DNA from: an uncultured virus (IMG/VR IMGVR_UViG_3300014159_000004)
Lineage: Duplodnaviria; Heunggongvirae; Uroviricota; Caudoviricetes
Length of the DNA stretch: 64,000 nt
Strand: one strand, 5' to 3'
Virus record (IMG/VR): IMGVR_UViG_3300014159_000004
In this document: positions 12,915 to 62,182 of the stretch, in pieces
How positions within the stretch are numbered: the first letter of the stretch is position 1
How the letters are laid out: the number at the start of each line of letters is the position of its first letter
Notes under the pieces: generated by a model
The model's input: the letters and a program-made list of their open reading frames with translations, nothing else
What the model was told of the DNA's origin: nothing
Databases searched by the model: none
Translations under genes and position numbers: made by a program

Positions 12915-18409
<5,495 letters not shown>

Positions 18410-25168: not shown

Positions 25169-25199
25169 GGCTCGAGACTACCACGACTCCGGCGGCGAC

Positions 25200-30864: not shown

Positions 30865-30897
30865 GCCGGAGAGCGTACGCCAGTTCGGGCGGGTCGT

Positions 30898-31476
30898 CTA
30901 CGCGCTGCGGCTGCGCGCGAGGACCACCAGCCCGACGCCCGCGACGACGGCGGCGCCGCCCGCGGCGAGCAGCGGGGCCCTGTTCTCCGCGAGCCAGCCG
31001 AAGAAGCCGCCGGACGGCGGCGCGTCGGGCGCCGACGGCGTCGCGGGGGCGCGGGTCGCCGCTGAGCGGCCCGACGAGGTCGACGGTTTCACCTTCGCGG
31101 CGGCGAGGCGCTGCGCCACTTGGTACTGGTTGACCATGTCCAGGGCGATGGCCTTCGCCGCGTCGACGTCGGCCTGCGTCGCTGAGGGGCCGCTGTTGAC
31201 GTTCGCGAGCTTGCCGTTGTCCACCCACGCGAGGTGGGTCGCGCCCATGACCGTCGAGTCGTTGCCCGATAGCGCGTCGATGGCGGGACCGACGGAGCCG
31301 ACGGCGGCCGTCCCTGCAGTGAGCAGCGCCGCGACCGCACCGCCCGGGTTGGTGATGGTGCCGCTAGTGTACTGCGTGACCGCGGCCTGCAGCGCCGCGA
31401 TCCCTGGGCCGATGGCGTCGGGCGCGCCCACGCCGAAGCCGGTGACCCGGAAACCGCCGCGTTGGAGACTCTCCAT
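30898..31476 (-). CDS. C-terminally anchored membrane protein with the shared N-terminal motif
   Basis: MESLQRGGFRVTGFGVGA; C-terminal TM with basic tail. Confidence 0.75.
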   Translation of the reverse strand: MESLQRGGFRVTGFGVGAPDAIGPGIAALQAAVTQYTSGTITNPGGAVAALLTAGTAAVGSVGPAIDALSGNDSTVMGATHLAWVDNGKLANVNSGPSATQADVDAAKAIALDMVNQYQVAQRLAAAKVKPSTSSGRSAATRAPATPSAPDAPPSGGFFGWLAENRAPLLAAGGAAVVAGVGLVVLARSRSA

Positions 31477-31502
31477 GCCGGTTAGCGTACGCCGCTCCGG
31501 TC

Positions 31503-32135
31503 TCAGCGTCTATGCGGTACCGCCGCCGAGAGCAGTCGGGCGTAGGGAGAGAGCACGCCGAGGACGATGACGCCGCCGACGACGCTGCCGCCGACGATGA
31601 GCGCCGTCTTGTGGTCCTTGAACCACCGGCTCAAGTCGTCGAAGGGGTTGTGGATGTTCGACGGGTCGGTGTCCGCATAAGCCTTCTCGCCGAAGGTTTG
31701 TGGCACCAGGTGCGAGGGGACGTCCTCGGGTGGTTTCGCGTCGGCGGCCCGCGTCGCCGTATCGAGGCGGTCGAAGAGGTTTTTCCAGTCTCCCTTGACC
31801 GTGGGCGCGCTGCTCGGGGGGTAACCTTGCTGTACGGCCTTCTGTAAACTTTCCCACGACGTACTGTTCAGTGTGAACGTGCCCACGTTCGCGAGTGCCG
31901 CCTGGTAGCGCGCCTGCAGAGCCTTCCAATCGCTGGTCCAGTCCGCGAACGCCTTAGGATCCAAAGACGACCACTTCGACGCGAACGCGTTGTACGCCGC
32001 ACCGAGCTTCTGCATCCGCGCGGCCCACTGCACCTTCGACGTCGCGAGGTCGTCGTCGCTCACATACAGGCCGGTCTCGGAAAAACCGACACCGAACCCA
32101 GCAACCGTCACGCCGCCGCGCCGGACGGTCTCCAT
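31503..32135 (-). CDS. C-terminally anchored membrane protein with the shared N-terminal motif
   Basis: METVRRGGVTVAGFGVG; GAGGAGG RBS; C-terminal TM. Confidence 0.75.
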   Translation of the reverse strand: METVRRGGVTVAGFGVGFSETGLYVSDDDLATSKVQWAARMQKLGAAYNAFASKWSSLDPKAFADWTSDWKALQARYQAALANVGTFTLNSTSWESLQKAVQQGYPPSSAPTVKGDWKNLFDRLDTATRAADAKPPEDVPSHLVPQTFGEKAYADTDPSNIHNPFDDLSRWFKDHKTALIVGGSVVGGVIVLGVLSPYARLLSAAVPHRR

Positions 32136-32530
32136 CAGCGCCTCCTCTTCTTGAGGAACGTCCGGTGCGCGACCTCGTCGAGGATCCAGCCCGTGATCGC
32201 TCCGGCCACGCTCATGATGACCGCCTCTTTCCACGGCGAGCGGTACTCCGGCTCCTTCGGGGCCTCCGCGCCGAGGCCGGCGTTCGTTCGCCTCCGCAAC
32301 AGTTCCGCCATCTCGCGCGCGGTGCGCTGCGTGGGCGCGATCCCGCCTCCCGGCTCGGTGCAGCCGCCGCCCTCGACGAACTCGTCGCCGCGCCCCGCGG
32401 CGACGAGCCGCTCCATCGCGGCGAGTTTCGCGCCCGGCTCGCGCCAGTTCGGCGACCAGAGGGCGCCCACGCCGAAGCCGGCGACCGAATGGCCGTTGCG
32501 CTGGACGTGCTCTTGCTGCACGCCGGTCAT
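32135..32530 (-). CDS. membrane protein with the shared N-terminal motif
   Basis: EHVQRNGHSVAGFGVGA; C-terminal TM then KKRRR; true start possibly GTG at 32521. Confidence 0.7.
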   Translation of the reverse strand: MTGVQQEHVQRNGHSVAGFGVGALWSPNWREPGAKLAAMERLVAAGRGDEFVEGGGCTEPGGGIAPTQRTAREMAELLRRRTNAGLGAEAPKEPEYRSPWKEAVIMSVAGAITGWILDEVAHRTFLKKRRR

Positions 32531-32534
32531 CGTA

Positions 32535-33140
32535 TCACCAGTCCGGCAGCTCGGGCGGATCGTTCCGAAGCTGGGCGACCAGGTAGAACTCGATGAGCCG
32601 CTGCAAGTCGGACACGTCGACGACCCCCGATGACCAAGCTCGGTCGGCTGCTTCTAGCGCCCGGTAGTACGCGCGCGGCGCGTACTTCATCCTCTGCGGC
32701 ACCGGACGCTCTCCGGGGAGCTCTCTGCCTAGCCGCTGGCTCATGACCAGGTACGAAACCGCCCGCGCGGTGCGCCCGTTGCCGTCGTCGAACGGGTGGA
32801 TCCACGCCAATCGCCACATGATGAACGCCGCTGCAAAGAGGGCGTCATTCGAGCCGTTGACGTAATTGCACGCCTCCTGCGTCAGGCGAGGCAAGTCTTC
32901 GTGTGGAGGTGGTACGTGGCTGGACCCGAAGATCTCGACGTCGTCGCTCGTGCGCCATCGGCCGGCGCTAGGGAGGATATCTCTCATTGCAGCCTGGTGG
33001 AGGCTGAGGGTCATTCGCGGGGTCAGCGTTTGATGCGCAGGCGACCGCACCCACCGCTGCACCATGCGTAACTGAGCTAGACCGCCCTCAGCCTCGAGAA
33101 TCTCCGACTCGCTCTCGTCGTCGTCGAACCCCCACCCCAT
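32535..33140 (-). CDS. fic: Fic-family protein (AMPylase toxin)
   Basis: canonical HPFDDGNGRTAR motif. Confidence 0.92.
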   Translation of the reverse strand: MGWGFDDDESESEILEAEGGLAQLRMVQRWVRSPAHQTLTPRMTLSLHQAAMRDILPSAGRWRTSDDVEIFGSSHVPPPHEDLPRLTQEACNYVNGSNDALFAAAFIMWRLAWIHPFDDGNGRTARAVSYLVMSQRLGRELPGERPVPQRMKYAPRAYYRALEAADRAWSSGVVDVSDLQRLIEFYLVAQLRNDPPELPDW

Positions 33141-33316
33141 CAACGAACCGCGCGGCGTCGCCGCATTCTCTCCGCCGCGATGTCAACGATCTCGCGCGTC
33201 ACTCGCGCGTTCTCCAGGCCGATGTTCCCTGCCACGAAGTTGCGCGCCTGCTCCTCGCGCTCCGCCTCCGTCATCGGGCGAGACTCTCGGATCAGTCGAG
33301 CGAGTTCGCGCGTCAC
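33140..33316 (-). CDS. VbhA-like Fic antitoxin, 58 aa (absent from ORF track)
   Basis: manual translation MTRELARLIRESRPMTEAEREEQARNFVAGNIGLENARVTREIVDIAAERMRRRRAVR; TGATG overlap with fic. Confidence 0.7.
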   Translation of the reverse strand: MTRELARLIRESRPMTEAEREEQARNFVAGNIGLENARVTREIVDIAAERMRRRRAVR

Positions 33317-38703: not shown

Positions 38704-38716
38704 GAGAACGGAAACG

Positions 38717-38899
38717 ATGCGCTTCGCCATCTTCATGAGGGTCACCGTCGACGCGTCGGGCGAGCCGCAGGCGGTCGACTGGGCGAGGAAGTTCGAGAAG
38801 CTGCTCAAGAACCCGATGGCGAAGACGGCGATCGTGGCCGAGGGGATCAAGATGGTCGGCGAGCCGGTGGCGCTGCAGCCGAAGCGGGAGGACCCGTGA
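38717..38899 (+). CDS. small hypothetical protein
   Basis: AGGAG RBS; coupled. Confidence 0.65.
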   Translation: MRFAIFMRVTVDASGEPQAVDWARKFEKLLKNPMAKTAIVAEGIKMVGEPVALQPKREDP

Positions 38900-39537
38900 C
38901 CAGGGCCGAATACGAGAAACCGGAGGGCGCGTGCTCGTACGGCTCGTGCCTCAAGAAGGCGATCGAGGGAGGCCGGTGCGGCCGGCACCACCGGTTCGCC
39001 TTCAAGAGCCGCGTGAGATTCGGCGGCGAGAGCCGCGAGAAGGTCCAGCGGGTGCGGTTCGGGACCGACGTCGGCGACCCGCGCGAGGCCCTCGTCGAGG
39101 CCCTCGCGGGAGACGACGCGCTCGCCGTCGTGGACGCGCTCGACGTCTATCTGGATATCCCGGTCGGGCTCCAGCTGTCGGTCCGAAACCCAGACGCCGA
39201 GCGGGACCAGGCGATCCGGGAGCGAGACGAGGCGGTCGCGCGCGCGGAGAGAGCCGAGCAAGGGCTGAATGGATCGCAGGTGTCCGAGCCGGTGTCGCCG
39301 GTGCAACCGGAACCGCCGTCGAGCGCCTCGTCGCTGCCACCAACGTCGCCCGACGTGTACACGCAGAACGACATCGCCAACGGCGTGCCCGAGTCGACCG
39401 ACGAGATCGTCGGCGTCGCGGACAACCTCAGGGTCGCTGCGGCTTCGCTGCGCGTGGCTGTCAGGACGCTCGCGGACGTCGCCGCGTCGAAGCTCGTCGC
39501 GGCGGTCGCTAAGTTCAAGCGCGCTCAGCGAACCTGA
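38896..39537 (+). CDS. hypothetical protein with a Cys3His motif and a copy of the putative capsid N-terminal peptide
   Basis: C-x4-C-x9-C-x2-H then GGESREKVQRV. Confidence 0.65.
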   Translation: MTRAEYEKPEGACSYGSCLKKAIEGGRCGRHHRFAFKSRVRFGGESREKVQRVRFGTDVGDPREALVEALAGDDALAVVDALDVYLDIPVGLQLSVRNPDAERDQAIRERDEAVARAERAEQGLNGSQVSEPVSPVQPEPPSSASSLPPTSPDVYTQNDIANGVPESTDEIVGVADNLRVAAASLRVAVRTLADVAASKLVAAVAKFKRAQRT

Positions 39538-40511: not shown

Positions 40512-41624
40512 GTGCGCACCTACGTTGTCAAGCCCGGTGATTCGCCTGCCAGCATCGCCGCAAGAGACGAAATGGCGGGCTGTCCAAAGTGCGGGGCAGA
40601 TTTGGCGAATCCGGAGGTCAACCCACAAAAAGAAGCTGTTGTTCTCTCGAATGGGTTCCGCACCTTCAAGTCGCTCACGCCCGGTGAAGTCATCAACTTG
40701 CCCGATGCTTGGTTCCACCCGGCCCGCGAGAAGCTGCCGAAGACGTACTACCAGATCCTGCCGCACCCGGACGGCGTCACGCGCGGCACGCTCGGCGACG
40801 CGCTCGGCGACTTCCCCGATCTCGACGCCGCCGTGACCGCGGTCGCCCAGCTCGCGGCGCTGGGCGACGCCGCGTTCACGCGGGCCGTCGGCGACGCCGG
40901 CGCGAAGGTCGACGCCGCTGTGAGGGAGGCGTACCGGTCGACGATCCCCGACGCCGCCGCCAAGGCGAGGCTCGTCAAGGACGCGACGCACTGGGTCTGG
41001 CTGCGCAACGTCGACCTCGCGGCCGCCATCGCCGCGGGCGACCGGGCGACCATCGTGAAGGCGCGCCTGGACATCCAGAACGCGCTCGCGACGGCGCTCG
41101 GCAACGCGCGGCTCGCGATCCTCGCGCTCGCGCCGGGCGGTACGTCCGTCGTGTCGCCGTCCTCCGCGCCGCCTGAGCTGCTCGCGGCCGCGAGGGCGGC
41201 CGCCGCCGCCATCGCGTCCGACCCCAACTACTGCACGTCGGTCACGCACCCCGGCACGCCGGTCAACGCCGCGGTGCACCGCTTTAAGCTCGCGTGGAAC
41301 GCGACGCAGACGCCGAAGGTCCCCATCGGCACGAGCGCCTACGAGGTCGCGACGACCGTCGCGCTCGCGCAGGTGAACGGCAGCGCGCCGTCGGCGTGCG
41401 GCGCGGGTCGACGCCCGATGCCCGCACCGCCGCCGCCGCCACCGCTCACGCCCAAGCAGAAGGCAGAGCAGGAGAAGGCGCTCGCGCCGCCGAGCGAGGG
41501 CGGCTGGTCGCTGGGCAAGGTCGCCATCGGCGTCGCCGTCGCGGGCGCGGCGGCCGGCGGCATCGCGTACCTGGTGACGAGGCCGAAGAAGTCAGTGCGT
41601 CGAACGAGTCCGGGGTACGCATGA
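40512..41624 (+). CDS. LysM-domain protein with C-terminal membrane anchor
   Basis: TYVVKPGDSPASIA...N...LTPGEVINLP; C-terminal TM then RPKK. Confidence 0.8.
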   Translation: MRTYVVKPGDSPASIAARDEMAGCPKCGADLANPEVNPQKEAVVLSNGFRTFKSLTPGEVINLPDAWFHPAREKLPKTYYQILPHPDGVTRGTLGDALGDFPDLDAAVTAVAQLAALGDAAFTRAVGDAGAKVDAAVREAYRSTIPDAAAKARLVKDATHWVWLRNVDLAAAIAAGDRATIVKARLDIQNALATALGNARLAILALAPGGTSVVSPSSAPPELLAAARAAAAAIASDPNYCTSVTHPGTPVNAAVHRFKLAWNATQTPKVPIGTSAYEVATTVALAQVNGSAPSACGAGRRPMPAPPPPPPLTPKQKAEQEKALAPPSEGGWSLGKVAIGVAVAGAAAGGIAYLVTRPKKSVRRTSPGYA

Positions 41625-42295
41625 TCATCGTAGACAAGCCCGTGGAAGGCGTAAAAACCGACGCACGCATGCACCCTGCCGGTCGAGAGGGATCGCTCCT
41701 ATCGCTCAAGGAAGTCGCCGAGCGCTCGTGGAAGAGTCGGATGTCTCCGCGCTTGCGCGCGTGGACGACGCAGAAGCTCGCCGAGGTGGGCGTGTCGACC
41801 GGATCGCGCCGACAGAAGGGTCAGGCGGTCCTCGACGCGTTTCGTAAGAAGGTGCCGTACGTCGCTGACCCGGTGCTCGGCGAGTTCATGGAGACTCCAG
41901 AGCAGACCCTCTGCTTGGACGAGGGAGGTCTCTGCTTCATCGGCACCGACTGCGACGGCGCAGCCATCACACTCGCAGCCGCGATGATGTCGATCGGGAT
42001 CCCAGCGATGATCGTCGGCTCGTCGCACAAGCACCCGTACGACGTCCCGACGCACGTCTTCATGGCGTTCCAGGACGAGCAGGGCGACTGGGTCCGCATG
42101 GACGGCACGACCAAGCACCCGGTCGGGCGCGTCGGCAAGCACGAGCGCGAATTTTGGGTGGAGCCGGGCGCGGAGGCGAAGGATCGCGGCGAGGGCGACT
42201 TTGTCGGCATGGCGGGCGGCAGCGAGGTCGGCGTCGGGTCGGCGCGCGTGCTCGCCGTGAGCACGCTCGACCTGCTCTACCCGTCGTTCAAGTAA
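41621..42295 (+). CDS. transglutaminase-like cysteine protease
   Basis: YVADP..E...P..TL, DCD (Cys), THVF (His), WVRMDGT (Asp) triad order. Confidence 0.82.
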   Translation: MIIVDKPVEGVKTDARMHPAGREGSLLSLKEVAERSWKSRMSPRLRAWTTQKLAEVGVSTGSRRQKGQAVLDAFRKKVPYVADPVLGEFMETPEQTLCLDEGGLCFIGTDCDGAAITLAAAMMSIGIPAMIVGSSHKHPYDVPTHVFMAFQDEQGDWVRMDGTTKHPVGRVGKHEREFWVEPGAEAKDRGEGDFVGMAGGSEVGVGSARVLAVSTLDLLYPSFK

Positions 42296-42321
42296 CTCGC
42301 GCGACGCAGCGTCGCATCGTC

Positions 42322-42424
42322 GCTTGCAACCGTTGCATCCGCGGCTTGCAACCGTTGCATCGATGCTTGCAACCGGCGTGCTCCTGTTGCATCCGTGCCT
42401 TGCAACTGGATGCTCCCGTTGCAC
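42322..42424. repeat. intergenic array of TTGCAAC/GTTGCA inverted half-sites
   Basis: GCTTGCAACCGTTGCATC at 42322 and 42344, then two longer-spaced variants. Confidence 0.75.
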
Positions 42425-42761
42425 ACCTCCGAGCGCCGACAATCCGAACTAAGGACTACCCGGGACATACCGGAGTATTCTGTTTACGGACTGCGCATCG
42501 CGCGCGCGATCGAAATCCGAAGAGTCGATCGCGCGCCGCGCACTGACCTCTCGGTCGCGTCGCGAAGCGGCGACACGTCACGCCGGTAAGTTCACGACTT
42601 CACGGCTGTTTTTCCTGAACTCACGCGCCGCACCACCGCGCGGAGATCGGCCTCGTCAGCACTGCAATCTGCACGCGAAAATTCGAGTCGATCGCGCGCG
42701 ATCGACCAAAACTGTTTGACGCATCCAGAGCGCATTGTGAGCCTTCTTCTACGTTGAAGAC

Positions 42762-45700
42762 ATGGGTCTCTACGCGCACCGCCTCGCCGAACTCTCCGCT
42801 GCGCGCGAGCGCGCCGGACGGCGCGCACCGGTGCGCCCGAGTGGACCTACAGACCGCCGCCGCCCGTACGCGCCGCCGCGCCGCGACAGCCGCGCCGCGC
42901 CGCGCCGGCACGACGTGCGCATCGGCACCGTCATCCCGAGCACCTACGTCCCGCCTCCCCCGCCACCGCCGGACACCTACGTCGAGGCCAAGCGCAAGTC
43001 TGCGATGCAGACCCAGTCGCTGCTCTTCAGTCGCGCCGACGGCTGGACCGAGAGCAAGGCGAAAGAGTGGGCGAAGGAGCACGGGTACAAGTCGAACAAG
43101 GTGGACGTCACCGACCAGTACATCCGCCTGCGCCAACTCGACCCGAAGAAATTCACTGTCAAGCGGACAGTTCCGTTTGGCAAGGGCATCCGCGCCGTAG
43201 TCGCTCGTGAGGAACCAATGCCGACCAAGAAGAAGAAGTCGACCCGTCGTCCCGCAGCCAAGCGCACCGCCGCCAAGCGCAAGCCCGCGCCGCGCAAGCA
43301 CGCGGTGAAGCCCAAGTCGGCTCCGAAGCGGTCGGCCGCGCGCAAGCGCTCCAAGAAGGCGACGGTCGTCGCCGCGCGCCGGCGCCCGCGCATGGCCCGC
43401 GAGGTCGGTCGGGTCGTGGCCGCGAAGCGGCGCCCGGCGCGCCGCGTGCGCGAGGTCCGGGCGGCCGCCGAGGCGCGCCGGCGCAAACCTCGCGTGCGCG
43501 AGGTCCCGGTGGTCGCCGAGGCGAAGCGCAAGCCGGCCAGCTACGTGATGGCCAAGCGCCGCCCCGCGCCCAAGCGCCACCGGGCCGCCAAGCACAAGGT
43601 GCAGGCGTGGTTCGGCGACAGCGCGGGTCACAGCAAGGCCGCGAAGAAGGGCTGGAAGACGCGCAAGGGCCACAAGGCCAGCAAGGTGACCCGCAAGGCC
43701 GCCGAGTCGCGCCGCCGCCCGAAGAAGCACCACCGCGTCCGCGAGACGATGACCGTCCAGGCGCGCCGGCGCCCGAAGAAGCACCACCGCGCCCGCGAGA
43801 CGATGACCGTCCAGGCGCGTCGTCGCCCGAAGAAGCACCACCGCGCCCGCGAGACGATGACCGTCCAGGCACGCCGCCGTCCGAAGAAGCACCACCTCGC
43901 CCGCGAGGCGTCGTCGGTGGTCCGCTCGAAGGCGCGCCGCAGCTACGTCCGCGCGCCGAGCATGCGCAGCATCGGGCGATCGGCGCTCGACATGGGACTC
44001 GAGCTCGGGCTCGGGGTCGCCGGCTACCTGCTCGCCGACGGCGTCGACCGCTTCCTCGCGACCTACGACCCGGCCAACGCGGCCAAGGCCGGCCCGAACA
44101 AGTTCACCTCGGACGGCACGGGCATGCTGGGCAACTCGCTCAACGTCGCCTCGGCGCCCGACTGGAAGCGCTACGCCAGCCTCGTCGGGCTGACGCTCAT
44201 GCCGCTCGGCGGCTCGCTCTTCATCGAGAACAAGACGATCCGCTCCTCGGTGGAGGGGATCGGTCTCGGCGCCGGCATCAAGCTGGCGACGACGCTCTGG
44301 GAGAGCCTGCTGATGCCGCTGCTCGTCGGCAAGGACACGAGCGCGCCAGCCCTGCAGAAGAGCTGGGTCGCGCGCCTGTACCCCGCCGAGGTCTCGGCGG
44401 CCCTCAACGAGAAGGCCGGGAAGGCCGCGGTCTCGAGCGGCGGCGCCAACAGCACGGCCGGCACGCTCTCGGGCGGCGCCGATCGCGATGCGGGCCCGTT
44501 CGCGCTCGCCGGTCGCTTCGACCACGGTCGCGGCGGTCGCGAGTGGGTGAGGCCCAACCAGTGGCAGATGCCGGACGTGCCGGTGTACGACCCGAACGCG
44601 GTCGTCGTCGATCCGGACGCGGTCCCGGTCGCCGTCCAGCCGGCGTGGCCCGCGCACTTCGGCGAGCGGCACCGCTGGGGCCTGCGCGGCGTCGGCGACG
44701 CGGTGCAGGACGTGGCGCAGACCATCGCGGCGCAGACCGGCGTGCACCCGGCGCACGCCGTCAACGCGGCGATGCACGTGGCCGGCGAGCCGCACGACAT
44801 CACGCAGGCGCTCCGACGCGCGCTGCCGCACATCCGCCGCGAGATCCTGGCCGAGTGTGCCCGGCACGTGCACCCGCACGTGGTCCGGATGCACGGCCAC
44901 GCCCGCCACCCGCGCGAGCACGCCGAGTGGGAGGGCGAGCGGGCTGCCGAGGGCTTCCCGCCGCCCGCGCACGACGCACCGGAGCATGAGTGGCGCGAGT
45001 GGCACGGCAAGCGCGCGGCCGCGGACCTGCCCGCGGCTCCGCCCCCGCCCGAGCCGCCGGCCGCTGCCCCACGGACGCCGGAGCACCTGCGCACTCGGAG
45101 TGAGTGGCAGCCGAAGTCCGACCGCACGATCACCTTCGAACGGTTCGCGACCACCCAGCAGGCGCTGGGGATCGGCGGACCGGGAGGCCCCGCCGCGAGC
45201 GGCTACCCGGGCCAGCCGGGTCTCGGCTGCCTCGGCGACGCCTTCGCCGACGCAGCGCAGAGCGCGGCGGCCACCATCCCGGACATGCCGCTCGAGAACG
45301 CGGTCAACGTGGCGGCCCACGCGGCGACCGAGCCGTTCAGCTGCGACCGAGCGATCGAGCGCGCGATGCCGTTCGTCCGCCGCGAGCTCACCCGAGCCTG
45401 CGCGGAGAACATGACCCCGTACATCCGCCAGTTGACCGGGATCCCGCTCCCGCCCGAGGCTGCGGCCCCGCCGCCTCCGCCGCCGGGCGCGCCCGAGCTG
45501 CCCGCGCCGCCGGCGCCGCCGGTCATCGAGTTCGTGCCGTCGCCGCCTCCGCCGAGCTGGACCCGCTCGGAGGCGGAGTGGCACGACGAGGAGCGTCGCA
45601 ACTGGGACCGCACGCACGGCGGTCACGCCGTCGTGGCGGCCGCGACGCACGCGGCCGAGGCTGCGGCCGCACCGCACCCCGACGCGCAGAAGCCCGCCGT

Positions 45701-46100
45701 GCAGGCGGCCGTGCACGCCATCGCCGACAAGGCCGCGCAGGCGGCATCCGCGGCGCCTCCCGGCACGCCTCCGGCGGAGGTCCACGCCGCTGCCCACGAG
45801 GCTGCGAAGGTGGAGGCCGCCGAGCACCCGGCGGTCGCTGCGCACCCGGCCGTCAAGGCCGCCGTCGCAGCGGCGCCGCCCGCAGCGGCGCACGCCGTCG
45901 CTGCGCAAGCGGCGCCGGTGGCCGGCGTCCACGGAGTCGGCAACCCGCCCCGCAACCTGCCGGTCGGGCCGCCCAAGATCGGCAAGTCCGGCCCGCGCGT
46001 GCCCCAGCACGAGTCGGAGTGCGGCTGCCTCGACGACAGCCCGTACCTCGGCTTCGTCGGCGACGAAGTCGAAGAGGACCAGCTGTTCACCCTGAGCTGA
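42762..46100 (+). CDS. putative virion core/DNA-condensing polyprotein
   Basis: globular N-terminal domain, about 250 aa K/R-rich region, hydrophobic segments, duplicated helical domain, Ala/His/Pro tail. Confidence 0.75.
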   Translation: MGLYAHRLAELSAARERAGRRAPVRPSGPTDRRRPYAPPRRDSRAAPRRHDVRIGTVIPSTYVPPPPPPPDTYVEAKRKSAMQTQSLLFSRADGWTESKAKEWAKEHGYKSNKVDVTDQYIRLRQLDPKKFTVKRTVPFGKGIRAVVAREEPMPTKKKKSTRRPAAKRTAAKRKPAPRKHAVKPKSAPKRSAARKRSKKATVVAARRRPRMAREVGRVVAAKRRPARRVREVRAAAEARRRKPRVREVPVVAEAKRKPASYVMAKRRPAPKRHRAAKHKVQAWFGDSAGHSKAAKKGWKTRKGHKASKVTRKAAESRRRPKKHHRVRETMTVQARRRPKKHHRARETMTVQARRRPKKHHRARETMTVQARRRPKKHHLAREASSVVRSKARRSYVRAPSMRSIGRSALDMGLELGLGVAGYLLADGVDRFLATYDPANAAKAGPNKFTSDGTGMLGNSLNVASAPDWKRYASLVGLTLMPLGGSLFIENKTIRSSVEGIGLGAGIKLATTLWESLLMPLLVGKDTSAPALQKSWVARLYPAEVSAALNEKAGKAAVSSGGANSTAGTLSGGADRDAGPFALAGRFDHGRGGREWVRPNQWQMPDVPVYDPNAVVVDPDAVPVAVQPAWPAHFGERHRWGLRGVGDAVQDVAQTIAAQTGVHPAHAVNAAMHVAGEPHDITQALRRALPHIRREILAECARHVHPHVVRMHGHARHPREHAEWEGERAAEGFPPPAHDAPEHEWREWHGKRAAADLPAAPPPPEPPAAAPRTPEHLRTRSEWQPKSDRTITFERFATTQQALGIGGPGGPAASGYPGQPGLGCLGDAFADAAQSAAATIPDMPLENAVNVAAHAATEPFSCDRAIERAMPFVRRELTRACAENMTPYIRQLTGIPLPPEAAAPPPPPPGAPELPAPPAPPVIEFVPSPPPPSWTRSEAEWHDEERRNWDRTHGGHAVVAAATHAAEAAAAPHPDAQKPAVQAAVHAIADKAAQAASAAPPGTPPAEVHAAAHEAAKVEAAEHPAVAAHPAVKAAVAAAPPAAAHAVAAQAAPVAGVHGVGNPPRNLPVGPPKIGKSGPRVPQHESECGCLDDSPYLGFVGDEVEEDQLFTLS
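43710..43907 (+). repeat. 54-bp coding tandem repeat (RRRPKKHHR[VA]RETMTVQA x3 plus partial)
   Basis: units start at 43710, 43764, 43818 and 43872. Confidence 0.9.
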
Positions 46101-46198
46101 GAAGCTCGCAAAAAACCAACGACCCCTAGCGAAGAAGCAACAACCAACTCCCCGCGGCGGACCAAGGAAACGGCGGGGAAGCGAAAGAGAGAACGACC

Positions 46199-47494
46199 AT
46201 GGCGAGGAACGTGAGCGGTTTGAGCAAGAAGTCGATCAAGTACGGCGGCGAGAGCCGCGAGAAGGTCCAGCGGGTGCCGTTCGGCCTGGGCGCCCCGCCC
46301 GGCGACGAGGCGGCCGCCCAGAAGTGCCTGCGCTGCGGGTTCGGCAACGTGCCCGTGGTCGAGGAGGTGGTCTGGACGATCCCGCTGCCGCTGACCAGCG
46401 AGCAGGCGACCACGACCTTCGGCGACACGGTCAACCCGCTCAGCGGGTCCTCCGCGGTCCCCGGCGTCGCGTCGATCGACTCGACGTTCCTCATCAACGG
46501 CATCCTGCAGACCGACATCCTGACCCAGGGCATCGGCGTGCACGTGTTCTGCGAGCCGACGTCGTTCTCCACGATCGGCAACGCCTGGTCGGCGCCGTCG
46601 ACCACCACCGCTCCGCCGCCGTCTCCCGACGTGTTCACGGTCAACGACATCACCAACGGCGCGATGGGTGGACTCGTCGCGGAGGACCTCGCCTCCTTCT
46701 CTCCCGCCGTCTTCGAGTGGGGCGCGGCGACCTGGCGCGCGGGATGGAACTTCATCAACGCGTATCAATTTCAATGGAAAACGTCGCAGCGTGAGCTCGT
46801 GCTCAACGAACTCGCCGCGGACATCAGCTACTTCGGGTCCTTCGCGGACGCCGAGGCGAGCGGCACGAGCGAGCTGCCGGTCATCGAGTTCGTGGCGCTG
46901 GTCAACGCGCAGTACCGCGCGCAGGACTCCGCGACGATCTTCCTGCCGGTCAACTTCCGGCGCGTCGGCAGCGTGACGGGCGCGTTCCCGTACGTCACCG
47001 GCGACAACCTCGGCATCTTCCACCCGACGCGCGACTTCGACCTCGCGCCGGTCACCTGGGGTGGCCTCAGGTGGCAGGGGTACGGCTGCCGCGGTCAGAT
47101 GTACCGGCAGATCGAGTCGCCCTGCTTCCTCGAGCGCGGTATCCCCATCGGGATGATCTTCATTGCGCAAGACGCGGTCCATCAAGCCCAGATGATCGAG
47201 GCGCTCACGATCGACAACGAGCCGTTCGGCACGAACGTCGTGCCGGACGTGAACGTCAGCGACACCACCCTCACGTCCACCGACGTGGGTCCCGGCGCGC
47301 TGCCGGTCATGCTGGAGCAGACGCTCGACGCGACCCCGGTCAGCGTCTCGCAGTCGGTCAACGTCAACCGCCAGATCTTCAAGGGCGGCATCTTCAAGCT
47401 CGGCATCAAGATCAAGGGCTGGGAGATGCCCGGCGGGTGGAAGAGCTACTGCGCGGAGAAGGGCATCCGCGGGATGCACCACGCGGGCGCCTGA
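46199..47494 (+). CDS. candidate major capsid protein (possibly jelly-roll type)
   Basis: 431 aa, beta-rich, strong codon bias, purine-rich leader, strong terminator downstream; gene is secure, function inferred. Confidence 0.5.
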   Translation: MARNVSGLSKKSIKYGGESREKVQRVPFGLGAPPGDEAAAQKCLRCGFGNVPVVEEVVWTIPLPLTSEQATTTFGDTVNPLSGSSAVPGVASIDSTFLINGILQTDILTQGIGVHVFCEPTSFSTIGNAWSAPSTTTAPPPSPDVFTVNDITNGAMGGLVAEDLASFSPAVFEWGAATWRAGWNFINAYQFQWKTSQRELVLNELAADISYFGSFADAEASGTSELPVIEFVALVNAQYRAQDSATIFLPVNFRRVGSVTGAFPYVTGDNLGIFHPTRDFDLAPVTWGGLRWQGYGCRGQMYRQIESPCFLERGIPIGMIFIAQDAVHQAQMIEALTIDNEPFGTNVVPDVNVSDTTLTSTDVGPGALPVMLEQTLDATPVSVSQSVNVNRQIFKGGIFKLGIKIKGWEMPGGWKSYCAEKGIRGMHHAGA

Positions 47495-47587: not shown

Positions 47588-48187
47588 ATGCAGCCGAAAA
47601 GCGAGAACGTCCGGGACCTGGCGATTTGGGCGCCGAAGATCGCCTACGCGATGGTGGTCGGGGTCCCGCGCGTCCCGTTCGTCGTCGACATCCCGATCCA
47701 GTTCACGTCGAGCGTCGTCGATGCGCCGTACATCGAGGCGAGCTTCGACAACAACCTCACGCAGGACACGCTTGTCGAGAAGATCGCGTTCACGCTCTTC
47801 CAGCAGAACTCGTTTCCTGGGAGCCCGTTCCAGAGCCTGTACTTCAACCAGTTGAAGGGGCAGACGGGCGTCGGCGTGAAGTTCGATGTCTACGGGGCGC
47901 CCCGCTACAGCGTGCAGGACACACCGATCGACCTCGCGAACATGGCCGACGTCCTGGCCGTCACGTGGCCCAACGGCTGGCCGCTCCCGAAGCAGTCGAA
48001 CGTCAAAGTGTCGGCCGTCCTGTTCCAGACGCCGGTGAGCGTACCTTTCGACGTCAACATAACTTTCCTCGGTTGGAGTGCGTTGGACGCGGAAATTGAC
48101 TCACTCTCGGACGACGATGCGCGCTGCCGGCTGCGCAAGCTCGGATTCGAGGTCCCGGACCTGGAAGTTCTTCTGACCAGGCCGTGA
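47588..48187 (+). CDS. beta-rich putative structural protein (minor capsid candidate)
   Basis: GGAGGAG RBS; alternating hydrophobic strands. Confidence 0.55.
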   Translation: MQPKSENVRDLAIWAPKIAYAMVVGVPRVPFVVDIPIQFTSSVVDAPYIEASFDNNLTQDTLVEKIAFTLFQQNSFPGSPFQSLYFNQLKGQTGVGVKFDVYGAPRYSVQDTPIDLANMADVLAVTWPNGWPLPKQSNVKVSAVLFQTPVSVPFDVNITFLGWSALDAEIDSLSDDDARCRLRKLGFEVPDLEVLLTRP

Positions 48188-49272
48188 CTACTCGATTCAC
48201 CTTCTACTGCCACACCAACCGGGTGAACGGCAAACAATACGTCGGCCAAACAGCCTGGACGATGGAGGAGCGTTGGAAATCGCACGTCACGTCAGCGAAA
48301 CTACATCAGGGCTGTCGGGTATTCGGGGCGGCCATTCGCAAGTACGGCCCGGACGCGTTCGATCACGAGATCCTCGAAGTCGTCGTCTGCACGCAGCAAG
48401 AGGCTGACCTCATTGAGACGGAATGGATCAAGCGAAAAGGAAGTCGTGTACCGTTCGGGTACAACCTTACGGCTGGCGGCGGTAGCCACGGTCTCCTCCA
48501 CGAGGACTCCAAGCGTTTGATAGGAGAAGCGTCGAGAAAACGCTTGGCTGGCATGACGCCGGAGCAGCGAACGGAGTTCTTCAAAAAGAACATTCACATC
48601 TACACGCCGGAACGTTTGGCGCGTCATGCGGAGCGGTTTCGATCCAAAGAACACCGCGAGAAGGTGACAGCCGACCAGAAATACTTTTGGTCGAAGCTAT
48701 CGCCCGAAGAGAGGCTCGCTCGCGCTAAGCATATGCACGCTGGCATTTCGGAAGAAAAGAAACACGAGCGCACGCGCAAAGCGTGGGCCAAACTGACACC
48801 AGAAAAGCGCGCAGAACGCATCCGAAACGCCAGCGAGGCCAACGTTCGGGCGTGGAGTCCAGAGAGATCGAAGAAGAGGAGCGAGGCGCAGTCTGCAAGA
48901 CACGCAGCGATTCCGCCTGAACAGCGTCGCGAGGTCGTCAACAAGGCGTGGGTCACTCGTCGCGCGAAATACGGGCAGAGCGGCATGAAGAACCCAGCAC
49001 CAGCCCGAAGTGGTTACGTCAAGCTGACTCCGGAGGAACTGTCAAAACGCCGCAGAAAAAGTTGGGCGAACATGACGCCGGAAGCCTACGACGAGCGGGT
49101 ACGCAAGACTCGGGAAGGCAAACGGCTGGCGCGTCTGGCGAAGTCCGGTCAGCAGCTCGACGCCGAACTCGTCCCCTTCGTCCGCCACTGGCACAAGCGC
49201 GGCCACTCGATCCGGTCGATCGCCCTCGCCTTCGACGTGTCCACCAATGAGATCGAGAGGGCGGTGGCCTGA
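48184..49272 (+). CDS. GIY-YIG homing endonuclease with NUMOD3-like repeats and C-terminal HTH
   Basis: FYCHTNRVNGKQYVGQT...RW.SH, AIRKYG..F, E.EWI, GYNLTAGG; lower GC. Confidence 0.9.
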   Translation: MTTRFTFYCHTNRVNGKQYVGQTAWTMEERWKSHVTSAKLHQGCRVFGAAIRKYGPDAFDHEILEVVVCTQQEADLIETEWIKRKGSRVPFGYNLTAGGGSHGLLHEDSKRLIGEASRKRLAGMTPEQRTEFFKKNIHIYTPERLARHAERFRSKEHREKVTADQKYFWSKLSPEERLARAKHMHAGISEEKKHERTRKAWAKLTPEKRAERIRNASEANVRAWSPERSKKRSEAQSARHAAIPPEQRREVVNKAWVTRRAKYGQSGMKNPAPARSGYVKLTPEELSKRRRKSWANMTPEAYDERVRKTREGKRLARLAKSGQQLDAELVPFVRHWHKRGHSIRSIALAFDVSTNEIERAVA

Positions 49273-52712: not shown

Positions 52713-53761
52713 GTCGCGAGCCCGCCCACCAGCGACCGGGCGCGCGCGTCCGGTACAACTACACGGACGGCCCGGTCCCCGCGGGCACGTTGGGTACGAT
52801 CCTCGGGTTTCTGCCGCGGAGCCAGCAGGCTCAGATCCGGTGGGACGACGACACCGTCAACAACCACACGCCCGACGAGTACGACGTGGTCCCGCGCGGG
52901 ACGAGGCGACCGATTGGTGAAGCGCAAGACGTTCTCGCCGCCAAATATTTCGAACGCGGTGCTCGACTGCGTATCCGCAGCAAGGGGGCAAACGGGCAAC
53001 CGTTCGAGGCGTTCTGGTTCTTGGTTCCGTCTGAGATGACTCCTGAGGAGGTTGCACTGCAGTTCGCGCAGACCGTGCAACCAGGCATGCTCCTCGAGAT
53101 CGAGGAAGGCGGCGGTGTGAAGCGGACATTTCGGCAGAACGGTGACGGAACAGTCACGCCCGTACCGAACGTCTCTGGGCGCCTTCGGGAGATAGGTGAG
53201 TCACGCCGCCAGACGAAGTGGTCCGACTGGGACATCCTCGACGCCGTCGAGCGCCGCCACGGGATGACGCCCGAGGCGAAAGCCCGCGCCTTCGAACTCA
53301 TCGACCTCGGGTACATCGACGCGGCGGGGACGTGGGAGCTCACGCCCAGAGGGCGTCGCGCCTGGGAGCGCGACGCGCCGAAGGGTGGGTGGTCGAACAG
53401 GCACCAGCAGGCGCCCCGACTCGAAGCGCGTCGACAGATGCGCCGGCAAACCGTTCACGCGGCACCCACTAGCGGCTGGACCTCCGGCAAGCGACCGAGC
53501 CACGCCGAGATCTGGGCGGACGGCAAGCCGATCACCGTCGCTAAATCCGGGCGCAAGTGGACGGTCACCGTCATGGGCCGACCCGTCGTCAACGGCGCGT
53601 CCGGCGGGCTCACGTTCGAGGGTCGCTCGGACTACGTCGACGGCCTCACACAGGCGAGGTTCAACAGCAAGGGCGACGCCGACTCCGTCGCGCACAAGAT
53701 CGGCCGGTACATGCTCAACCTCGGTGACTTCGTCCACACGTACGTGGAGCACGTCGGATGA
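52709..53761 (+). CDS. modular hypothetical protein (four small domains)
   Basis: GTGA coupling; SH3-like, unknown, winged-helix-like and unknown modules. Confidence 0.65.
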   Translation: MSREPAHQRPGARVRYNYTDGPVPAGTLGTILGFLPRSQQAQIRWDDDTVNNHTPDEYDVVPRGTRRPIGEAQDVLAAKYFERGARLRIRSKGANGQPFEAFWFLVPSEMTPEEVALQFAQTVQPGMLLEIEEGGGVKRTFRQNGDGTVTPVPNVSGRLREIGESRRQTKWSDWDILDAVERRHGMTPEAKARAFELIDLGYIDAAGTWELTPRGRRAWERDAPKGGWSNRHQQAPRLEARRQMRRQTVHAAPTSGWTSGKRPSHAEIWADGKPITVAKSGRKWTVTVMGRPVVNGASGGLTFEGRSDYVDGLTQARFNSKGDADSVAHKIGRYMLNLGDFVHTYVEHVG

Positions 53762-54075
53762 CCGAGTCCGTCTCCCGCGGCGGCCGCCCGGCGCCAGGCT
53801 TCGCCCTGGGCGACGCGTCGCCCGCGTGCGCCGCGTGCCCCGCGGCGCTGCCGTCCGGGTCGAGCGCGGCGGCCCTGCTCGGCGGCGACTGGCGCGCGCT
53901 GCCGCTGGCCGTCGGGCACACGGCCCTGCGCGCGACGCTCGTCGGCGCGGGTCTCTACCTCGCCGGCGAGCGCGATCCCAAGCGCCTGGTCAAGAACGCG
54001 GCGGCCGGCTCGCTCGCGATTGAGGCGTTCGTGCTCGGGTGGGCGGCTTGGAAGCTGAGGCATAGCGCGCCCTAG
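53758..54075 (+). CDS. small membrane protein with the shared N-terminal motif
   Basis: MTESVSRGGRPAPGFALGDA; hydrophobic helices. Confidence 0.7.
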   Translation: MTESVSRGGRPAPGFALGDASPACAACPAALPSGSSAAALLGGDWRALPLAVGHTALRATLVGAGLYLAGERDPKRLVKNAAAGSLAIEAFVLGWAAWKLRHSAP

Positions 54076-54099: not shown

Positions 54100-57069
<2,970 letters not shown>

Positions 57070-58399: not shown

Positions 58400-58474
58400 A
58401 ATTTTGGCCGCGGGAGACTCGATGTTCGGCTCTCCTGATAGCGCCGAGCACCGCTTGACGTAGGCTCGTACCCT

Positions 58475-59440: not shown

Positions 59441-59507
59441 GGCGCGGGGAAAAGCAGCGGTCACCGGAGCCGGAAGCTGGTAGGATCCCCGAAAAGGAGC
59501 GGCGCCC

Positions 59508-62161: not shown

Positions 62162-62182
62162 CCCAGGGATCAGAACCCCAAA

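What the first reader, a model, noticed from the sequence alone, without database searches (positions are those of the whole stretch)
42762..46100. Core polyprotein: histone-H1/protamine-like region, membrane segment and a duplicated domain, each copy starting after G[VL]GDA
Seen: an N-terminal globular domain (QSLLFSRADGWTESKAKEWAKEHGYK...IRLRQLDP), a K/R/H-rich region with 54-bp repeats, and hydrophobic helices. Then come two homologous helical units, GVGDAVQDVAQTIAA...AVNAAMHVAGEP...RALPHIRREILAECA and LGDAFADAAQSAAA...AVNVAAHAATEP...RAMPFVRRELTRACA. An internal GAGGA RBS and in-frame ATG at 43218 would give MPTKKKKSTRR..., resembling the N-termini of the acidic-operon proteins. It is the clearest case of both shared motifs in one protein and lies directly upstream of the capsid candidate. 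Inference: a precursor linking DNA, membrane and capsid that is processed into several products.
Basis: partly seen in the sequence, partly recalled or inferred. Interest (0 to 1): 0.72.

Follow-up and report, generated by a model that had tools for sequence, protein, structure and literature searches.

The report
Membrane-anchored protamine-like viral tether protein
An uncultured 117-kb bacterial virus encodes, just before its most conserved particle-module gene, a large protein that joins a strongly positive DNA-binding arm to a membrane anchor and a long variable tail; no conserved cutting site was found, so it is probably not a cut-up polyprotein.

Summary
The ORF at 42762-46100 (+, 1112 aa) is real and conserved. 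A homologue lies upstream of the "capsid candidate" in 27 of 29 related IMG/VR loci.

Conservation defines these modules:
- an N-terminal helix peptide
- an optional 71-aa domain
- a universally kept internal ATG (43218) with a Shine-Dalgarno-like site
- a +84 Arg/Lys arm built of roughly 18-aa repeats
- a three-helix hydrophobic domain with invariant loops
- a variable C-terminal region
- a universal CxC...[FY]LGF[VI]GDE tail

The two "duplicated units" are true repeats (hhalign 98.3%, E 1e-14). They belong to a family-specific helical module present in 0, 1, 2 or 4 copies and always inside this protein.

The proposed cut site G[VL]GDA is found at 6 of 28 units, and it forms the start of the module's first helix. 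A profile of the genome's shared N-terminal tag does not match this protein (E = 17). Polyprotein processing is therefore unsupported, though not excluded.

The best reading is a membrane-anchored protamine-like DNA tether made in a long and a short form. This scan had already found shorter homologues in other genomes (e1-6032826, e1-5983701). New here are the long form, the copy-variable module, the separable N-terminal part and in-frame length variants in natural populations.

The parts
42716..42721 (+). Conserved TTGACG box (-35-like) about 45 nt upstream of the first ATG. No Shine-Dalgarno site lies before that ATG.
   Evidence: Alignment of 18 homologous upstream regions shows invariant or nearly invariant T, G, A, C columns. 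The sigma-70 consensus scan found no full promoter.
42762..46100 (+). Whole ORF, 1112 aa (long form)
   Evidence: A homologue lies upstream of the capsid candidate in 27 of 29 loci; the two loci without a match hold almost no upstream DNA.
42762..42827 (+). N-terminal peptide MGLY[AD][HD]RLAxLSExRR (aa 1-22), predicted helix 2-18
   Evidence: Conserved at protein level with synonymous changes in 18 aligned loci. M1 and Y4 are nearly invariant. AF2 predicts helix 2-18 at pLDDT 53-58.
42828..43004 (+). Pro/Arg-rich variable linker (aa 23-81)
   Evidence: Length varies but stays in frame and open in every homologue whose start is on the locus. AF2 pLDDT is below 50.
43005..43217 (+). Small alpha/beta N-domain (aa 82-152) with a WTxxKAKxWAKxHGY helix
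   Evidence: Alignment A4 of 18 sequences has 77% mean column identity. The domain is absent from 5 of 23 homologues. Weak Ish1/HeH matches occur in 11 of 18 members, best E 0.0012, below the Pfam cut-off. It stands alone in small proteins in some of 82 database hits (12 + 12 sequences read).
43209..43220 (+). Shine-Dalgarno-like GAGGA (43209-43213) and internal in-frame ATG (43218-43220); start of the 960-aa short form
   Evidence: Met is present in 23 of 23 homologues. A match of 4 nt or more to the SD core at -18..-4 occurs in 22 of 23, against 16-30% of control in-frame positions of the same genes.
43218..43967 (+). Polycationic arm (aa 153-402), net +84, built of repeats of the form RE-x-x-V-x-A-(R/K)n
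   Evidence: Arms of the 23 homologues are 125-265 aa long with net charge +52 to +93. AF2 predicts disorder.
43605..43652 (+). Conserved AWxG(D/N)xxGHxxAA(K/R)KG(W/H) motif inside the arm (aa 282-297)
   Evidence: A282, W283, H290, A293, A294, K296 and G297 are nearly invariant. The motif is present in 22 of 23 homologues. AF2 helix 287-303 follows and overlaps its C-terminal part at pLDDT 62-74.
43708..43907 (+). 54-bp tandem repeat, 3.7 copies (18-aa units RRRPKKHHRARETMTVQA)
   Evidence: A contig of an independent lake run lacks exactly one 54-bp copy.
43968..44516 (+). Hydrophobic three-helix domain with invariant polar loops (aa 403-585)
   Evidence: All but three of the 21 invariant columns of alignment A1 lie here, for example D429, R430, Y435, P437, F448, R538, Y540, P541, E543. 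AF2 helices 403-434, 468-485 and 491-521 have pLDDT 83-90. The best structural rows are transmembrane helices of transporters, Z 9.1 or less, which is within helical noise.
44673..44903 (+). Helical module copy 1 (aa 638-714), with LPH...ECARHVHPHVVRMH
   Evidence: AF2 pLDDT is 85-92.
45210..45443 (+). Helical module copy 2 (aa 817-894); has lost most of the His residues
   Evidence: AF2 pLDDT is 53-70.
45570..45911 (+). Ala/Pro/His-rich helical region (aa 937-1050), found only in the long forms
   Evidence: pLDDT 87-94; Ala-rich helices are easily over-rated by AF2.
45939..46097 (+). Universal C-terminal tail: GPxxxGP...CGC[LIV]...[FY]LGF[VI]GDExEE (aa 1060-1112)
   Evidence: P1078 and C1087 are invariant; G1069, P1076, G1077 and C1089 are nearly invariant. 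AF2 predicts disorder.
41621..42295 (+). Context: transglutaminase-like (papain-fold) gene directly upstream
   Evidence: Pfam Transglut_core E 7.7e-5, 23.4 bits against a cut-off of 23. It is syntenic in every locus that holds enough upstream flank, at 53-89% identity.
46199..47494 (+). Context: 431-aa 'capsid candidate', the most conserved gene of the module; fold not established
   Evidence: The AF2 model has pLDDT 42.3 and is unusable. There is no PDB sequence match.

Best explanation
This is a modular protein of the conserved, presumably structural, module of an uncultured and apparently tailless bacterial virus. It most likely tethers DNA to a membrane.

Proposed working of each part:
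- The 250-residue arm (+84), disordered and built of repeats, binds and partly neutralises the viral DNA.
- The three-helix hydrophobic domain, whose loops are the most conserved part of the protein, holds the protein in a viral membrane.
- The long C-terminal region acts as a spacer or adaptor of adjustable length. In this lineage it holds two copies of a family-specific helical His/Cys-bearing module plus Ala/Pro-rich helices.
- That region ends in the universal Cys-x-Cys ... [FY]LGF[VI]GDE acidic tail, which is the likeliest docking peptide.

Two products are probably made. A 1112-aa form starts at ATG 42762, close behind a conserved TTGACG box and without a Shine-Dalgarno site. A 960-aa form starts at the Shine-Dalgarno-led ATG 43218. 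The N-terminal extension (helix peptide plus 71-aa domain) is a separable add-on.

Shown: the architecture, its conservation, the repeat relationship, the conserved internal start signals and the length variants.
Inferred: DNA binding, membrane insertion, presence in the particle, use of both starts and docking by the tail.
For: Conservation and context
- A homologue sits upstream of the capsid candidate in 27 of 29 loci.
- The gene order acidic protein, LysM/TM protein, transglutaminase-like gene, target, capsid candidate, p199, p315 is kept in every locus that holds the flanks.

The arm
- Its composition is K39, R56, H13 against D1, E10.
- Arms in the 23 homologues carry +52 to +93 over 125-265 aa, with little sequence conservation apart from one motif. 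This fits a function based on charge.
- In-frame population variants are seen in an independent lake run: one 54-bp deletion, two 21-bp insertions, and a 3-bp insertion in the Pro-rich part.

The membrane domain
- It holds almost all invariant columns.
- It has three hydrophobic helices.
- Its best structural rows are transmembrane helices (weak).

The internal start
- Met is present in 23 of 23 homologues within a linker of variable length.
- An SD-like match occurs in 22 of 23, against about 20% at control positions.
- Met and SD are kept in 4 of the 5 homologues that lack the N-domain, and in P0121, whose N-domain is internally deleted.

The N-terminal part
- It exists elsewhere as stand-alone 83-128-aa proteins.

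The first start
- The N-peptide is conserved with synonymous codon changes.
- The variable linker stays open and in frame in all homologues.

The helical module
- It is a true repeat.
- 28 units occur in 18 proteins, at 4, 2 or 1 copies. None is found in 17 of the 23 aligned homologues. The units always lie between the membrane domain and the tail.
Against: - No experiment or expression data exist, and no RNA run holds the sequence.
- Hydrophobicity of the three segments in this protein is only 1.24-1.29, below the usual 1.6 mark.
- Structural matches to membrane proteins are within the noise for helical bundles.
- The fold and role of the neighbouring 'capsid candidate' are not established, so placement in the particle rests on gene order.
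- There is a topology problem (from established knowledge, recalled). A +84 arm must stay on the cytoplasmic side of the host membrane. In PRD1-type assembly that side becomes the capsid-facing side of the vesicle, not the DNA-facing side.
- GC3 does not discriminate the frame in the first 120 nt.
- One partly fitting contig of run X5 shows a net +2 insertion at 42888-42891, inside the linker. If real, it would break the long form.
- The SD-like site overlaps the codons of the conserved ...AREE end of the N-domain, so part of its conservation could be due to the protein sequence.
Confidence: 0.55

Rival explanations
1. One reading: a polyprotein precursor. The neighbouring transglutaminase-like cysteine protease cuts at the G[VLI]G motifs before each helical unit (and perhaps elsewhere). 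This would release a DNA-binding core protein, a membrane protein and capsid-associated helical proteins.
For: - A papain-fold (Transglut_core) gene lies directly upstream and is syntenic throughout the family. A second copy lies elsewhere in the genome.
- G[VLI]G is found at the start of 21 of 28 units.
- Nine other proteins of this genome carry a shared tag near their start that contains [FL]G[LV]G.
- Long disordered linkers separate the modules.
Against: - The exact motif G[VL]GDA occurs at only 6 of 28 units, and 7 of 28 units have no G[VLI]G at all.
- The motif is the N-cap of the first predicted helix of the module, not a linker.
- The tag profile does not match the target (E = 17).
- No homologue was found with the units as separate genes. 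P0130 (274 aa) corresponds to the C-terminal part of P0134 and is read here as a likely fragment.
- 17 of 23 homologues have no unit at all, so release of the units cannot be the family's core function.
Confidence: 0.15
2. A genome-delivery (pilot or ejection) protein rather than a packaging or condensing protein. It would be carried in the particle, insert into the host envelope at infection and escort the DNA in by its basic arm, in the manner of the membrane-tube proteins of PRD1 or the internal core proteins of T7-like phages.
For: - The protein combines a membrane-active domain with a DNA-binding arm.
- A LysM/TM protein sits in the same module and an M23 peptidase gene further downstream in the window (58442-59440); both are wall-directed.
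- The conserved polar loops of the membrane domain suggest a specific partner.
Against: - Arm length and charge drift freely (+52 to +93), as expected for bulk charge neutralisation rather than a defined conduit.
- No similarity to any known ejection or pilot protein was found by Pfam, PHROGs or PDB sequence search.
Confidence: 0.15
3. A non-structural protein that anchors viral (or host) DNA to the host cytoplasmic membrane during replication or partition. This would resemble inner-nuclear-membrane HeH/LEM proteins tethering chromatin.
For: - The positive-inside rule places the arm in the cytoplasm.
- 11 of 18 N-domains give weak Ish1 (HeH-type) matches.
- One distant N-domain is fused to a PD-(D/E)XK-like part.
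Against: - The gene lies in the conserved module with the most conserved gene of the family, and far from the replication genes (AAA_24, PD-(D/E)XK, UvrD at the other end of the genome).
- The Ish1 matches are below the Pfam cut-off (19.6 against 26.6 bits).
- The N-domain is missing in 5 of 23 homologues.
Confidence: 0.1

Closest known systems
Shorter homologues found earlier in this scan (e1-6032826, e1-5983701: 'membrane-anchored protamine-like protein, nested start')
   Same: Same family. It shares the position before the capsid candidate, the Arg-rich arm, the three-helix anchor, the CxC tail and the conserved internal start. All were re-tested here.
   Different: This member is about twice as long. 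It carries two copies of a helical module plus an Ala/Pro-rich helical region inserted between anchor and tail, and its arm is richer in Lys and His.
Adenovirus core proteins pVII and pre-mu (pX), matured by the adenoviral cysteine protease (recalled, no call)
   Same: Arg-rich proteins that condense the genome of a tailless icosahedral dsDNA virus. A virus-encoded cysteine protease gene is present.
   Different: The adenoviral proteins have no membrane anchor and are small. They have defined (M/I/L)XGG-X cleavage sites, and their protease belongs to another clan. Here no conserved site was found, and there is no sequence or family match.
Ascovirus P64 family of large cationic DNA-condensing virion proteins (PMC6163548, abstract read)
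   Same: An unusually large (64 kDa, pI 12.2) virion protein. By the abstract its basic C-terminal domain condenses genomic DNA.
   Different: P64 belongs to a eukaryotic virus and no membrane anchor is reported in the abstract. No homology to it was detected or tested here.
African swine fever virus polyprotein pp220 (core shell under the inner envelope, cut at Gly-Gly-X by pS273R) (recalled, no call)
   Same: A very large protein attached to the inner viral membrane that links membrane and nucleoid.
   Different: pp220 is myristoylated rather than held by transmembrane helices. It has conserved GG-X sites and is proven to be cut. Neither feature holds here.
Inner-nuclear-membrane HeH/LEM proteins (Heh1/Src1, MAN1; Pfam Ish1 PF10281)
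   Same: A small helix-extension-helix-like DNA-contact motif combined with a membrane anchor, tethering DNA to a membrane.
   Different: Only sub-threshold matches were found (best 19.6 bits against a cut-off of 26.6). The domain is optional in the family. These are cellular proteins with a different anchor.
Phage T4 internal proteins with capsid-targeting sequence
   Same: Basic proteins loaded into the particle with the DNA. A short N-terminal address peptide could be analogous to the conserved MGLYDDRLAxLSE peptide.
   Different: The T4 proteins are small, soluble, and cut by the prohead protease. Here neither targeting nor cutting is shown.

Membership tests
Membrane-anchored protamine-like protein family of this virus group (defined in this scan, not in print) | Gene directly upstream of the conserved 431-aa 'capsid candidate' | tested here: met
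   27 of 29 loci; conserved gene order.
Membrane-anchored protamine-like protein family of this virus group (defined in this scan, not in print) | Arg/Lys arm of more than +50 followed by a hydrophobic domain with the invariant DR..ATY.P...KFT..G.G..AN.LN and ARLYP.E motifs | tested here: met
Membrane-anchored protamine-like protein family of this virus group (defined in this scan, not in print) | C-terminal GPxP...CxC...[FY]LGF[VI]GD acidic tail | tested here: met
Membrane-anchored protamine-like protein family of this virus group (defined in this scan, not in print) | Conserved internal Met with a Shine-Dalgarno-like site before the arm | tested here: met
   Met in 23 of 23; SD-like match in 22 of 23.
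Viral maturation polyprotein (ASFV pp220 or adenovirus precursor type) | Conserved short cleavage motif at module boundaries | tested here: not met
   G[VL]GDA at 6 of 28 units and G[VLI]G at 21 of 28. The motif lies inside helix 1 of the module.
Viral maturation polyprotein (ASFV pp220 or adenovirus precursor type) | Cognate virus-encoded protease | tested here: inconclusive
   A transglutaminase-like papain-fold gene lies upstream (23.4 bits against a cut-off of 23). It is not clan CE, and no activity or substrate is known.
Viral maturation polyprotein (ASFV pp220 or adenovirus precursor type) | Mature products detected | not testable with these tools
   No proteome data are available, and no RNA run holds the sequence.
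Linker histone H1 | Winged-helix globular domain (Pfam Linker_histone) | tested here: not met
   Pfam scan at E <= 0.1 gave only Ish1.
Protamine-like / sperm nuclear basic proteins (functional class) | Arg-dominated, disordered, very high net positive charge | tested here: met
   This is a compositional class, not a homology.
HeH/LEM-type domain (Pfam Ish1 PF10281) | Score above the Pfam gathering threshold | tested here: not met
   Best score 19.6 bits against 26.6. 11 of 18 members match at E <= 1. This keeps it as a lead only.
Shared tag near the N-terminus of this genome's small membrane proteins (ME[HS]xxRGGRxVxGFxLG) | Match to a profile built from the nine tag-bearing proteins | tested here: not met
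   The target scores E = 17 and -2.0 bits. The nine training proteins score 1e-14 to 1e-6 by construction.

The most novel reading that the evidence does not exclude
This virus family may load its 80-125 kb genome without a packaging motor. The DNA would be condensed on hundreds of membrane-anchored protamine-like arms and then enclosed as the membrane and shell form around it, more like poxvirus or ASFV-type assembly than like any known phage. The copy-variable helical modules would set the distance between membrane and shell, and the CxC...LGFVGDE tail would lock onto the shell.

Consistent points:
- No terminase or A32-type ATPase was found, and only a sub-threshold FtsK-like match.
- The arm's charge-only conservation.
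- The topology problem of a PRD1-type pathway.
Probability: 0.15. Interest if true: 0.85.

Novelty: new variant of a known kind. Interest (0 to 1): 0.55.

Why it matters
Basic genome-condensing core proteins are known from eukaryotic dsDNA viruses. As far as three literature searches show, they are not described for bacterial viruses, and none is described as welded to a membrane anchor.

If the reading holds, the protein gives a handle on how a large, apparently tailless group of bacterial viruses organises its DNA. By the four DNA runs laid the group occurs in wetland, lake-water and freshwater metagenomes. The protein's modular tail would be a natural experiment in spacer length.

This locus also corrects an attractive but unsupported idea, the polyprotein with G[VL]GDA cut sites.

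Tried and rejected
- tblastn of the target and of the capsid candidate against 50,697 phage records gave no match.
- Pfam and PHROGs on the target gave only a sub-threshold Ish1 match. Pfam on the 11 unit sequences gave nothing below E 0.045. PHROGs on the N-domain gave nothing below E 0.04.
- PDB sequence searches with profiles of the N-domain, the capsid candidate and the whole protein gave 0 hits.
- Foldseek of the full-length model against the PDB gave 0 hits at E <= 0.001. VIA-align against 48,161 chains gave a best Z of 9.1, which is within the stated noise for helical models.
- The AF2 model of the capsid candidate had mean pLDDT 42.3, so no fold search was run on it.
- Complex prediction of the capsid candidate with the C-terminal tail gave no verdict (score 0.02, controls not run).
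- ESM Atlas: the N-domain scored 0.91 to unnamed 70-aa viral clusters, a score that chance reaches 4-10 times in 100. There was no usable hit for unit 1.
- No RNA holder was listed among the sequencing runs.
One scan gave a distant low-GC locus, L033, where the domain is fused to a PD-(D/E)XK-like part. Whether a basic-arm gene follows the stand-alone forms therefore remains unknown.
- The sigma-70 consensus scan found no promoter in 42250-46300, and terminator-like sites were at the shuffle level.
- The idea that the unit starts and the C-tail are internal copies of the genome's shared N-terminal tag was rejected by the profile test.
- Small indels at 42883-42891 occur in single, partly fitting contigs of X5 and X6. 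They are too weak to interpret.

Full report
**What is there**

The window belongs to a single-contig virus record of 117,319 bp with 69% G+C. CheckV completeness is given as 100%. The ORF at 42762-46100 on the + strand encodes 1112 aa and has the codon-position G+C pattern of a real gene (GC1/2/3 = 0.74/0.57/0.92).

- The QSLLFSR...VVAREE domain (aa 82-152).
- A Lys/Arg/His-rich stretch (aa 153-402; K39, R56, H13, D1, E10, net +84).
- A 54-bp tandem repeat at 43708-43907 (3.7 copies, 93% matches).
- Three moderately hydrophobic segments.
- Two related helical units.
- A GAGGA at 43209-13 before an in-frame ATG at 43218.

**Family and context**

The downstream 431-aa "capsid candidate" has relatives at 65-85% identity on 29 IMG/VR loci. 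These lie on contigs of up to 125 kb. It has at least 375 relatives in the large protein collection, and none of the 120 listed carries a Pfam domain.

In 27 of the 29 loci a homologue of the target lies directly upstream. The two loci without one hold almost no upstream DNA. The gene order is kept wherever the flanks exist: acidic protein, LysM/TM protein, transglutaminase-like protein, target, capsid candidate, p199, an optional GIY-YIG endonuclease, then p315.

The rest of the genome has phage-type replication and recombination genes: AAA_24, PD-(D/E)XK, UvrD, Dam, an integrase and HNH. The ORFs scanned against Pfam gave no terminase, portal or capsid family. Whole-genome searches for a terminase family (PF03237) and Pox_A32 found nothing, and there is only a sub-threshold FtsK-like match.

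By their records, runs holding the stretch come from wetland, lake-water and freshwater metagenomes. Twenty runs of 17 studies are listed, three of them possibly the source. Four were laid (X4 and X5 wetland, X6 lake water, X7 freshwater); contigs of X4, X6 and X7 lie on all 30 bins of the stretch and those of X5 on 28.

This scan had already met shorter homologues in other genomes (e1-6032826, e1-5983701) and read them as membrane-anchored protamine-like proteins with a nested start.

**Architecture from conservation (alignment A1, 23 sequences)**

1. The first residues, MGLY[AD][HD]RLAxLSExRR, are conserved, and synonymous codon changes occur across 18 aligned loci. So the ATG at 42762 is a real start. 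It follows a conserved TTGACG box (42716-42721) and has no Shine-Dalgarno site.
2. A Pro/Arg-rich linker varies in length but stays open and in frame in all homologues.
3. The 71-aa N-domain is present in 18 of 23.
   - It is missing in L009, L014, L018, L021 and L029, and is internally deleted in the close relative P0121.
   - AF2 gives one helix and three strands at pLDDT 61-78.
   - 11 of 18 members give weak Ish1 (HeH-type) matches, best E 0.0012 and 19.6 bits against a cut-off of 26.6.
   - The domain occurs elsewhere as small stand-alone proteins (82 hits; 24 sequences read). It is then preceded either by a QLDREIAE-type helix or by a transmembrane helix. Once it is fused to a PD-(D/E)XK-like part.
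4. A Met is present in 23 of 23 homologues just before the basic arm.
   - It has a match of 4 nt or more to the Shine-Dalgarno core at -18..-4 in 22 of 23, against 16-30% of control in-frame positions in the same genes.
   - This holds in 4 of the 5 homologues that lack the N-domain, so it is not only a by-product of the ...AREE codons.
5. The arm is 125-265 aa long with net +52 to +93 (median +70) and is predicted disordered.
   - It is built of RE-x-x-V-x-A-(R/K)n repeats.
   - It has one conserved island, AWxG(D/N)xxGHxxAA(K/R)KG(W/H), whose C-terminal part lies in predicted helix 287-303.
6. The hydrophobic domain (aa 403-585) carries almost all invariant columns of the protein. It is modelled as helices 403-434, 468-485 and 491-521 at pLDDT 83-90.
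7. The region after the anchor is short in most homologues. There it is made of repeated short motifs: DSPYPDAxQALRxxAGV, YPTVQNTWGTGG and NPGQPGLS.
8. All homologues end in GPxP...CxC...[FY]LGF[VI]GD followed by acidic residues.

**The duplicated units**

The two units are aa 638-714 and 817-894. BLASTP gives E 8e-8. A profile-profile comparison of the two sets of orthologous units gives probability 98.3%, E 1.1e-14, over 73 columns at 40% identity.

A profile of all 11 units was run against 1.84 billion representative proteins. It found 14 proteins at E <= 0.001. Twelve are homologues of this same protein, and two are unrelated repeat proteins.

Counting units in those proteins and in A1 gives 28 units in 18 proteins:
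- four copies in one protein;
- two copies in seven proteins;
- one copy in ten proteins;
- none in 17 of the 23 aligned homologues.

The units always lie between the anchor and the tail. The best conserved part is (E/A)P-x-(D/N)-(I/L)...LPH...HECARH-x-HPH-x-x-R-x-H, a Cys/His pattern that suggests metal binding. Copy 2 of this genome has lost most of the His residues. No Pfam family, Atlas cluster or solved fold matches the unit.

**Test of the cleavage idea**

- G[VL]GDA occurs at 6 of 28 unit starts, all of them first units of the closest clade.
- G[VLI]G occurs at 21 of 28, and 7 of 28 have neither.
- In the model the motif is the N-cap of the first helix of the unit (helix 642-659), not a linker.
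- Nine other proteins of this genome do share a tag near their start, ME[HS]xxRGGRxVxGFxLG. In the 431-aa capsid candidate and in ORF 38704-39537 it takes the form GGESREKVQRV[PR]FG.
- A profile built from those nine tags scores the target at E = 17.
- The simple regex G[VLI]GD[AE] has 3 hits in 120 coding ORFs.

The "shared motif" therefore does not stand, and nothing in the comparative data requires processing. A transglutaminase-like (papain-fold) gene does lie directly upstream throughout the family, so cutting somewhere in the protein cannot be excluded.

**Natural variation**

Contigs of an independent lake-water run carry a strain about 97% identical that also has both units in tandem (record 20, 44038-45817). 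That strain shows, all in frame:
- one deletion of exactly 54 bp in the repeat array;
- two 21-bp insertions in the arm;
- a 3-bp insertion in the Pro-rich part.

Arm length thus changes by whole repeat units in nature while the frame is kept.

**How it most likely works**

Shown:
- the modular layout;
- which parts are constrained (anchor loops, tail, N-peptide, internal start signals);
- which parts drift (arm sequence and length, number of helical modules).

Inferred:
- The arm binds DNA by charge. At +84 per copy, a few hundred to about a thousand copies would neutralise a substantial part of the 235,000 phosphates of the genome (my arithmetic).
- The three helices sit in a membrane.
- The tail docks on another conserved particle protein.
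- The C-terminal region sets a distance.
- The long and short forms differ by an N-terminal add-on that can also be a separate gene elsewhere.

A difficulty remains. By the positive-inside rule the arm stays cytoplasmic. In a PRD1-type pathway (recalled) that face ends up toward the shell, not toward the DNA. So either assembly is different here (see the novel case) or the arm acts outside the DNA-filled lumen.

**Comparison with known systems**

Functionally the nearest systems are the basic core proteins of eukaryotic dsDNA viruses:
- adenovirus pVII and mu;
- baculovirus P6.9;
- the large ascovirus P64, whose basic C-terminal domain condenses DNA (PMC6163548, abstract read);
- membrane-attached core-shell polyproteins such as ASFV pp220.

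None is homologous, and none combines a transmembrane anchor with a protamine-like arm.

Three full-text searches returned no paper on this virus group or on such a phage protein in their listings (only the listings were read). This does not prove the group is not in print, since subscription journals are not covered.

**Limits**

- There are no expression or protein data.
- The neighbouring "capsid candidate" could not be folded (pLDDT 42.3).
- The tail-shell complex test gave no verdict.
- Single modules were not folded alone.
- The host is unknown.

Noticed in passing
window 24944-25177(-), 30562-30897(-), 30898-31509(-), 32135-32653(-), 53728-54075(+), 59484-59825(+), 59567-62161(+), 46199-47494(+), 38704-39537(+): Nine proteins share a tag near their start, ME[HS]xxR[GN]G[RF]xVx(G)F[GA][LV]G. 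Several of them are small and carry a hydrophobic stretch. The 431-aa capsid candidate and ORF 38704-39537 carry the variant GGESREKVQRV[PR]FG. This is the same kind of tag as in earlier notes e1-6061230 and e1-5324357.
   Followed up: partly
window 42716-42721 and 42740-42761: A conserved TTGACG box and a conserved CGTGAC lie just before the first ATG of the target in most relatives, and no Shine-Dalgarno site is present. This may be a family-specific late promoter with a very short leader.
   Followed up: partly
window 48184-49272 (+): A GIY-YIG homing endonuclease gene lies between p199 and p315. A match at this position is seen in only 7 of 29 related loci (L003 a short piece, L015, L016, L019, L025, L028; and this window). 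It behaves like a mobile insertion.
   Followed up: partly
window 15786-18596, 54231-56831, 62170-63015: Long stretches of about 80% G+C are open in several frames and encode [12 protein letters not shown] repeats (collagen-like or Pro-Val-Gly repeats). Which strand codes is unclear.
   Followed up: no
G000:C1:97289-97882 (-) and window 41621-42295 (+): The genome holds two transglutaminase-like (papain-fold) genes. One leads the target's module, and the other sits among the replication-side genes.
   Followed up: no
G000:C1:81125-83206 (-), locus L034: A 693-aa ORF has a sub-threshold FtsK_SpoIIIE match (E 0.006, 11.4 bits). It is the only hint of a packaging-type ATPase in the genome.
   Followed up: no
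P0141, P0142, P0144, P0160, P0158, P0169 and P0146-P0150, P0155, P0174: The target's 71-aa N-domain also exists as stand-alone proteins of about 100-127 aa. These have either an N-terminal transmembrane helix or a QLDREIAE-type helix that resembles the target's MGLYDDRLAELSE peptide.
   Followed up: partly
L006 and L019 (homologues of the target): In place of the helical module, these two carry a different insert with a His run and a conserved ...HHHHHC...YPTYTDAQLHAWC... motif.
   Followed up: no
window 32535-33182 (-), G000:C1:107264-107797 (-): The viral genome carries a Fic/DOC-domain gene and a BrnT-type toxin-domain gene.
   Followed up: no
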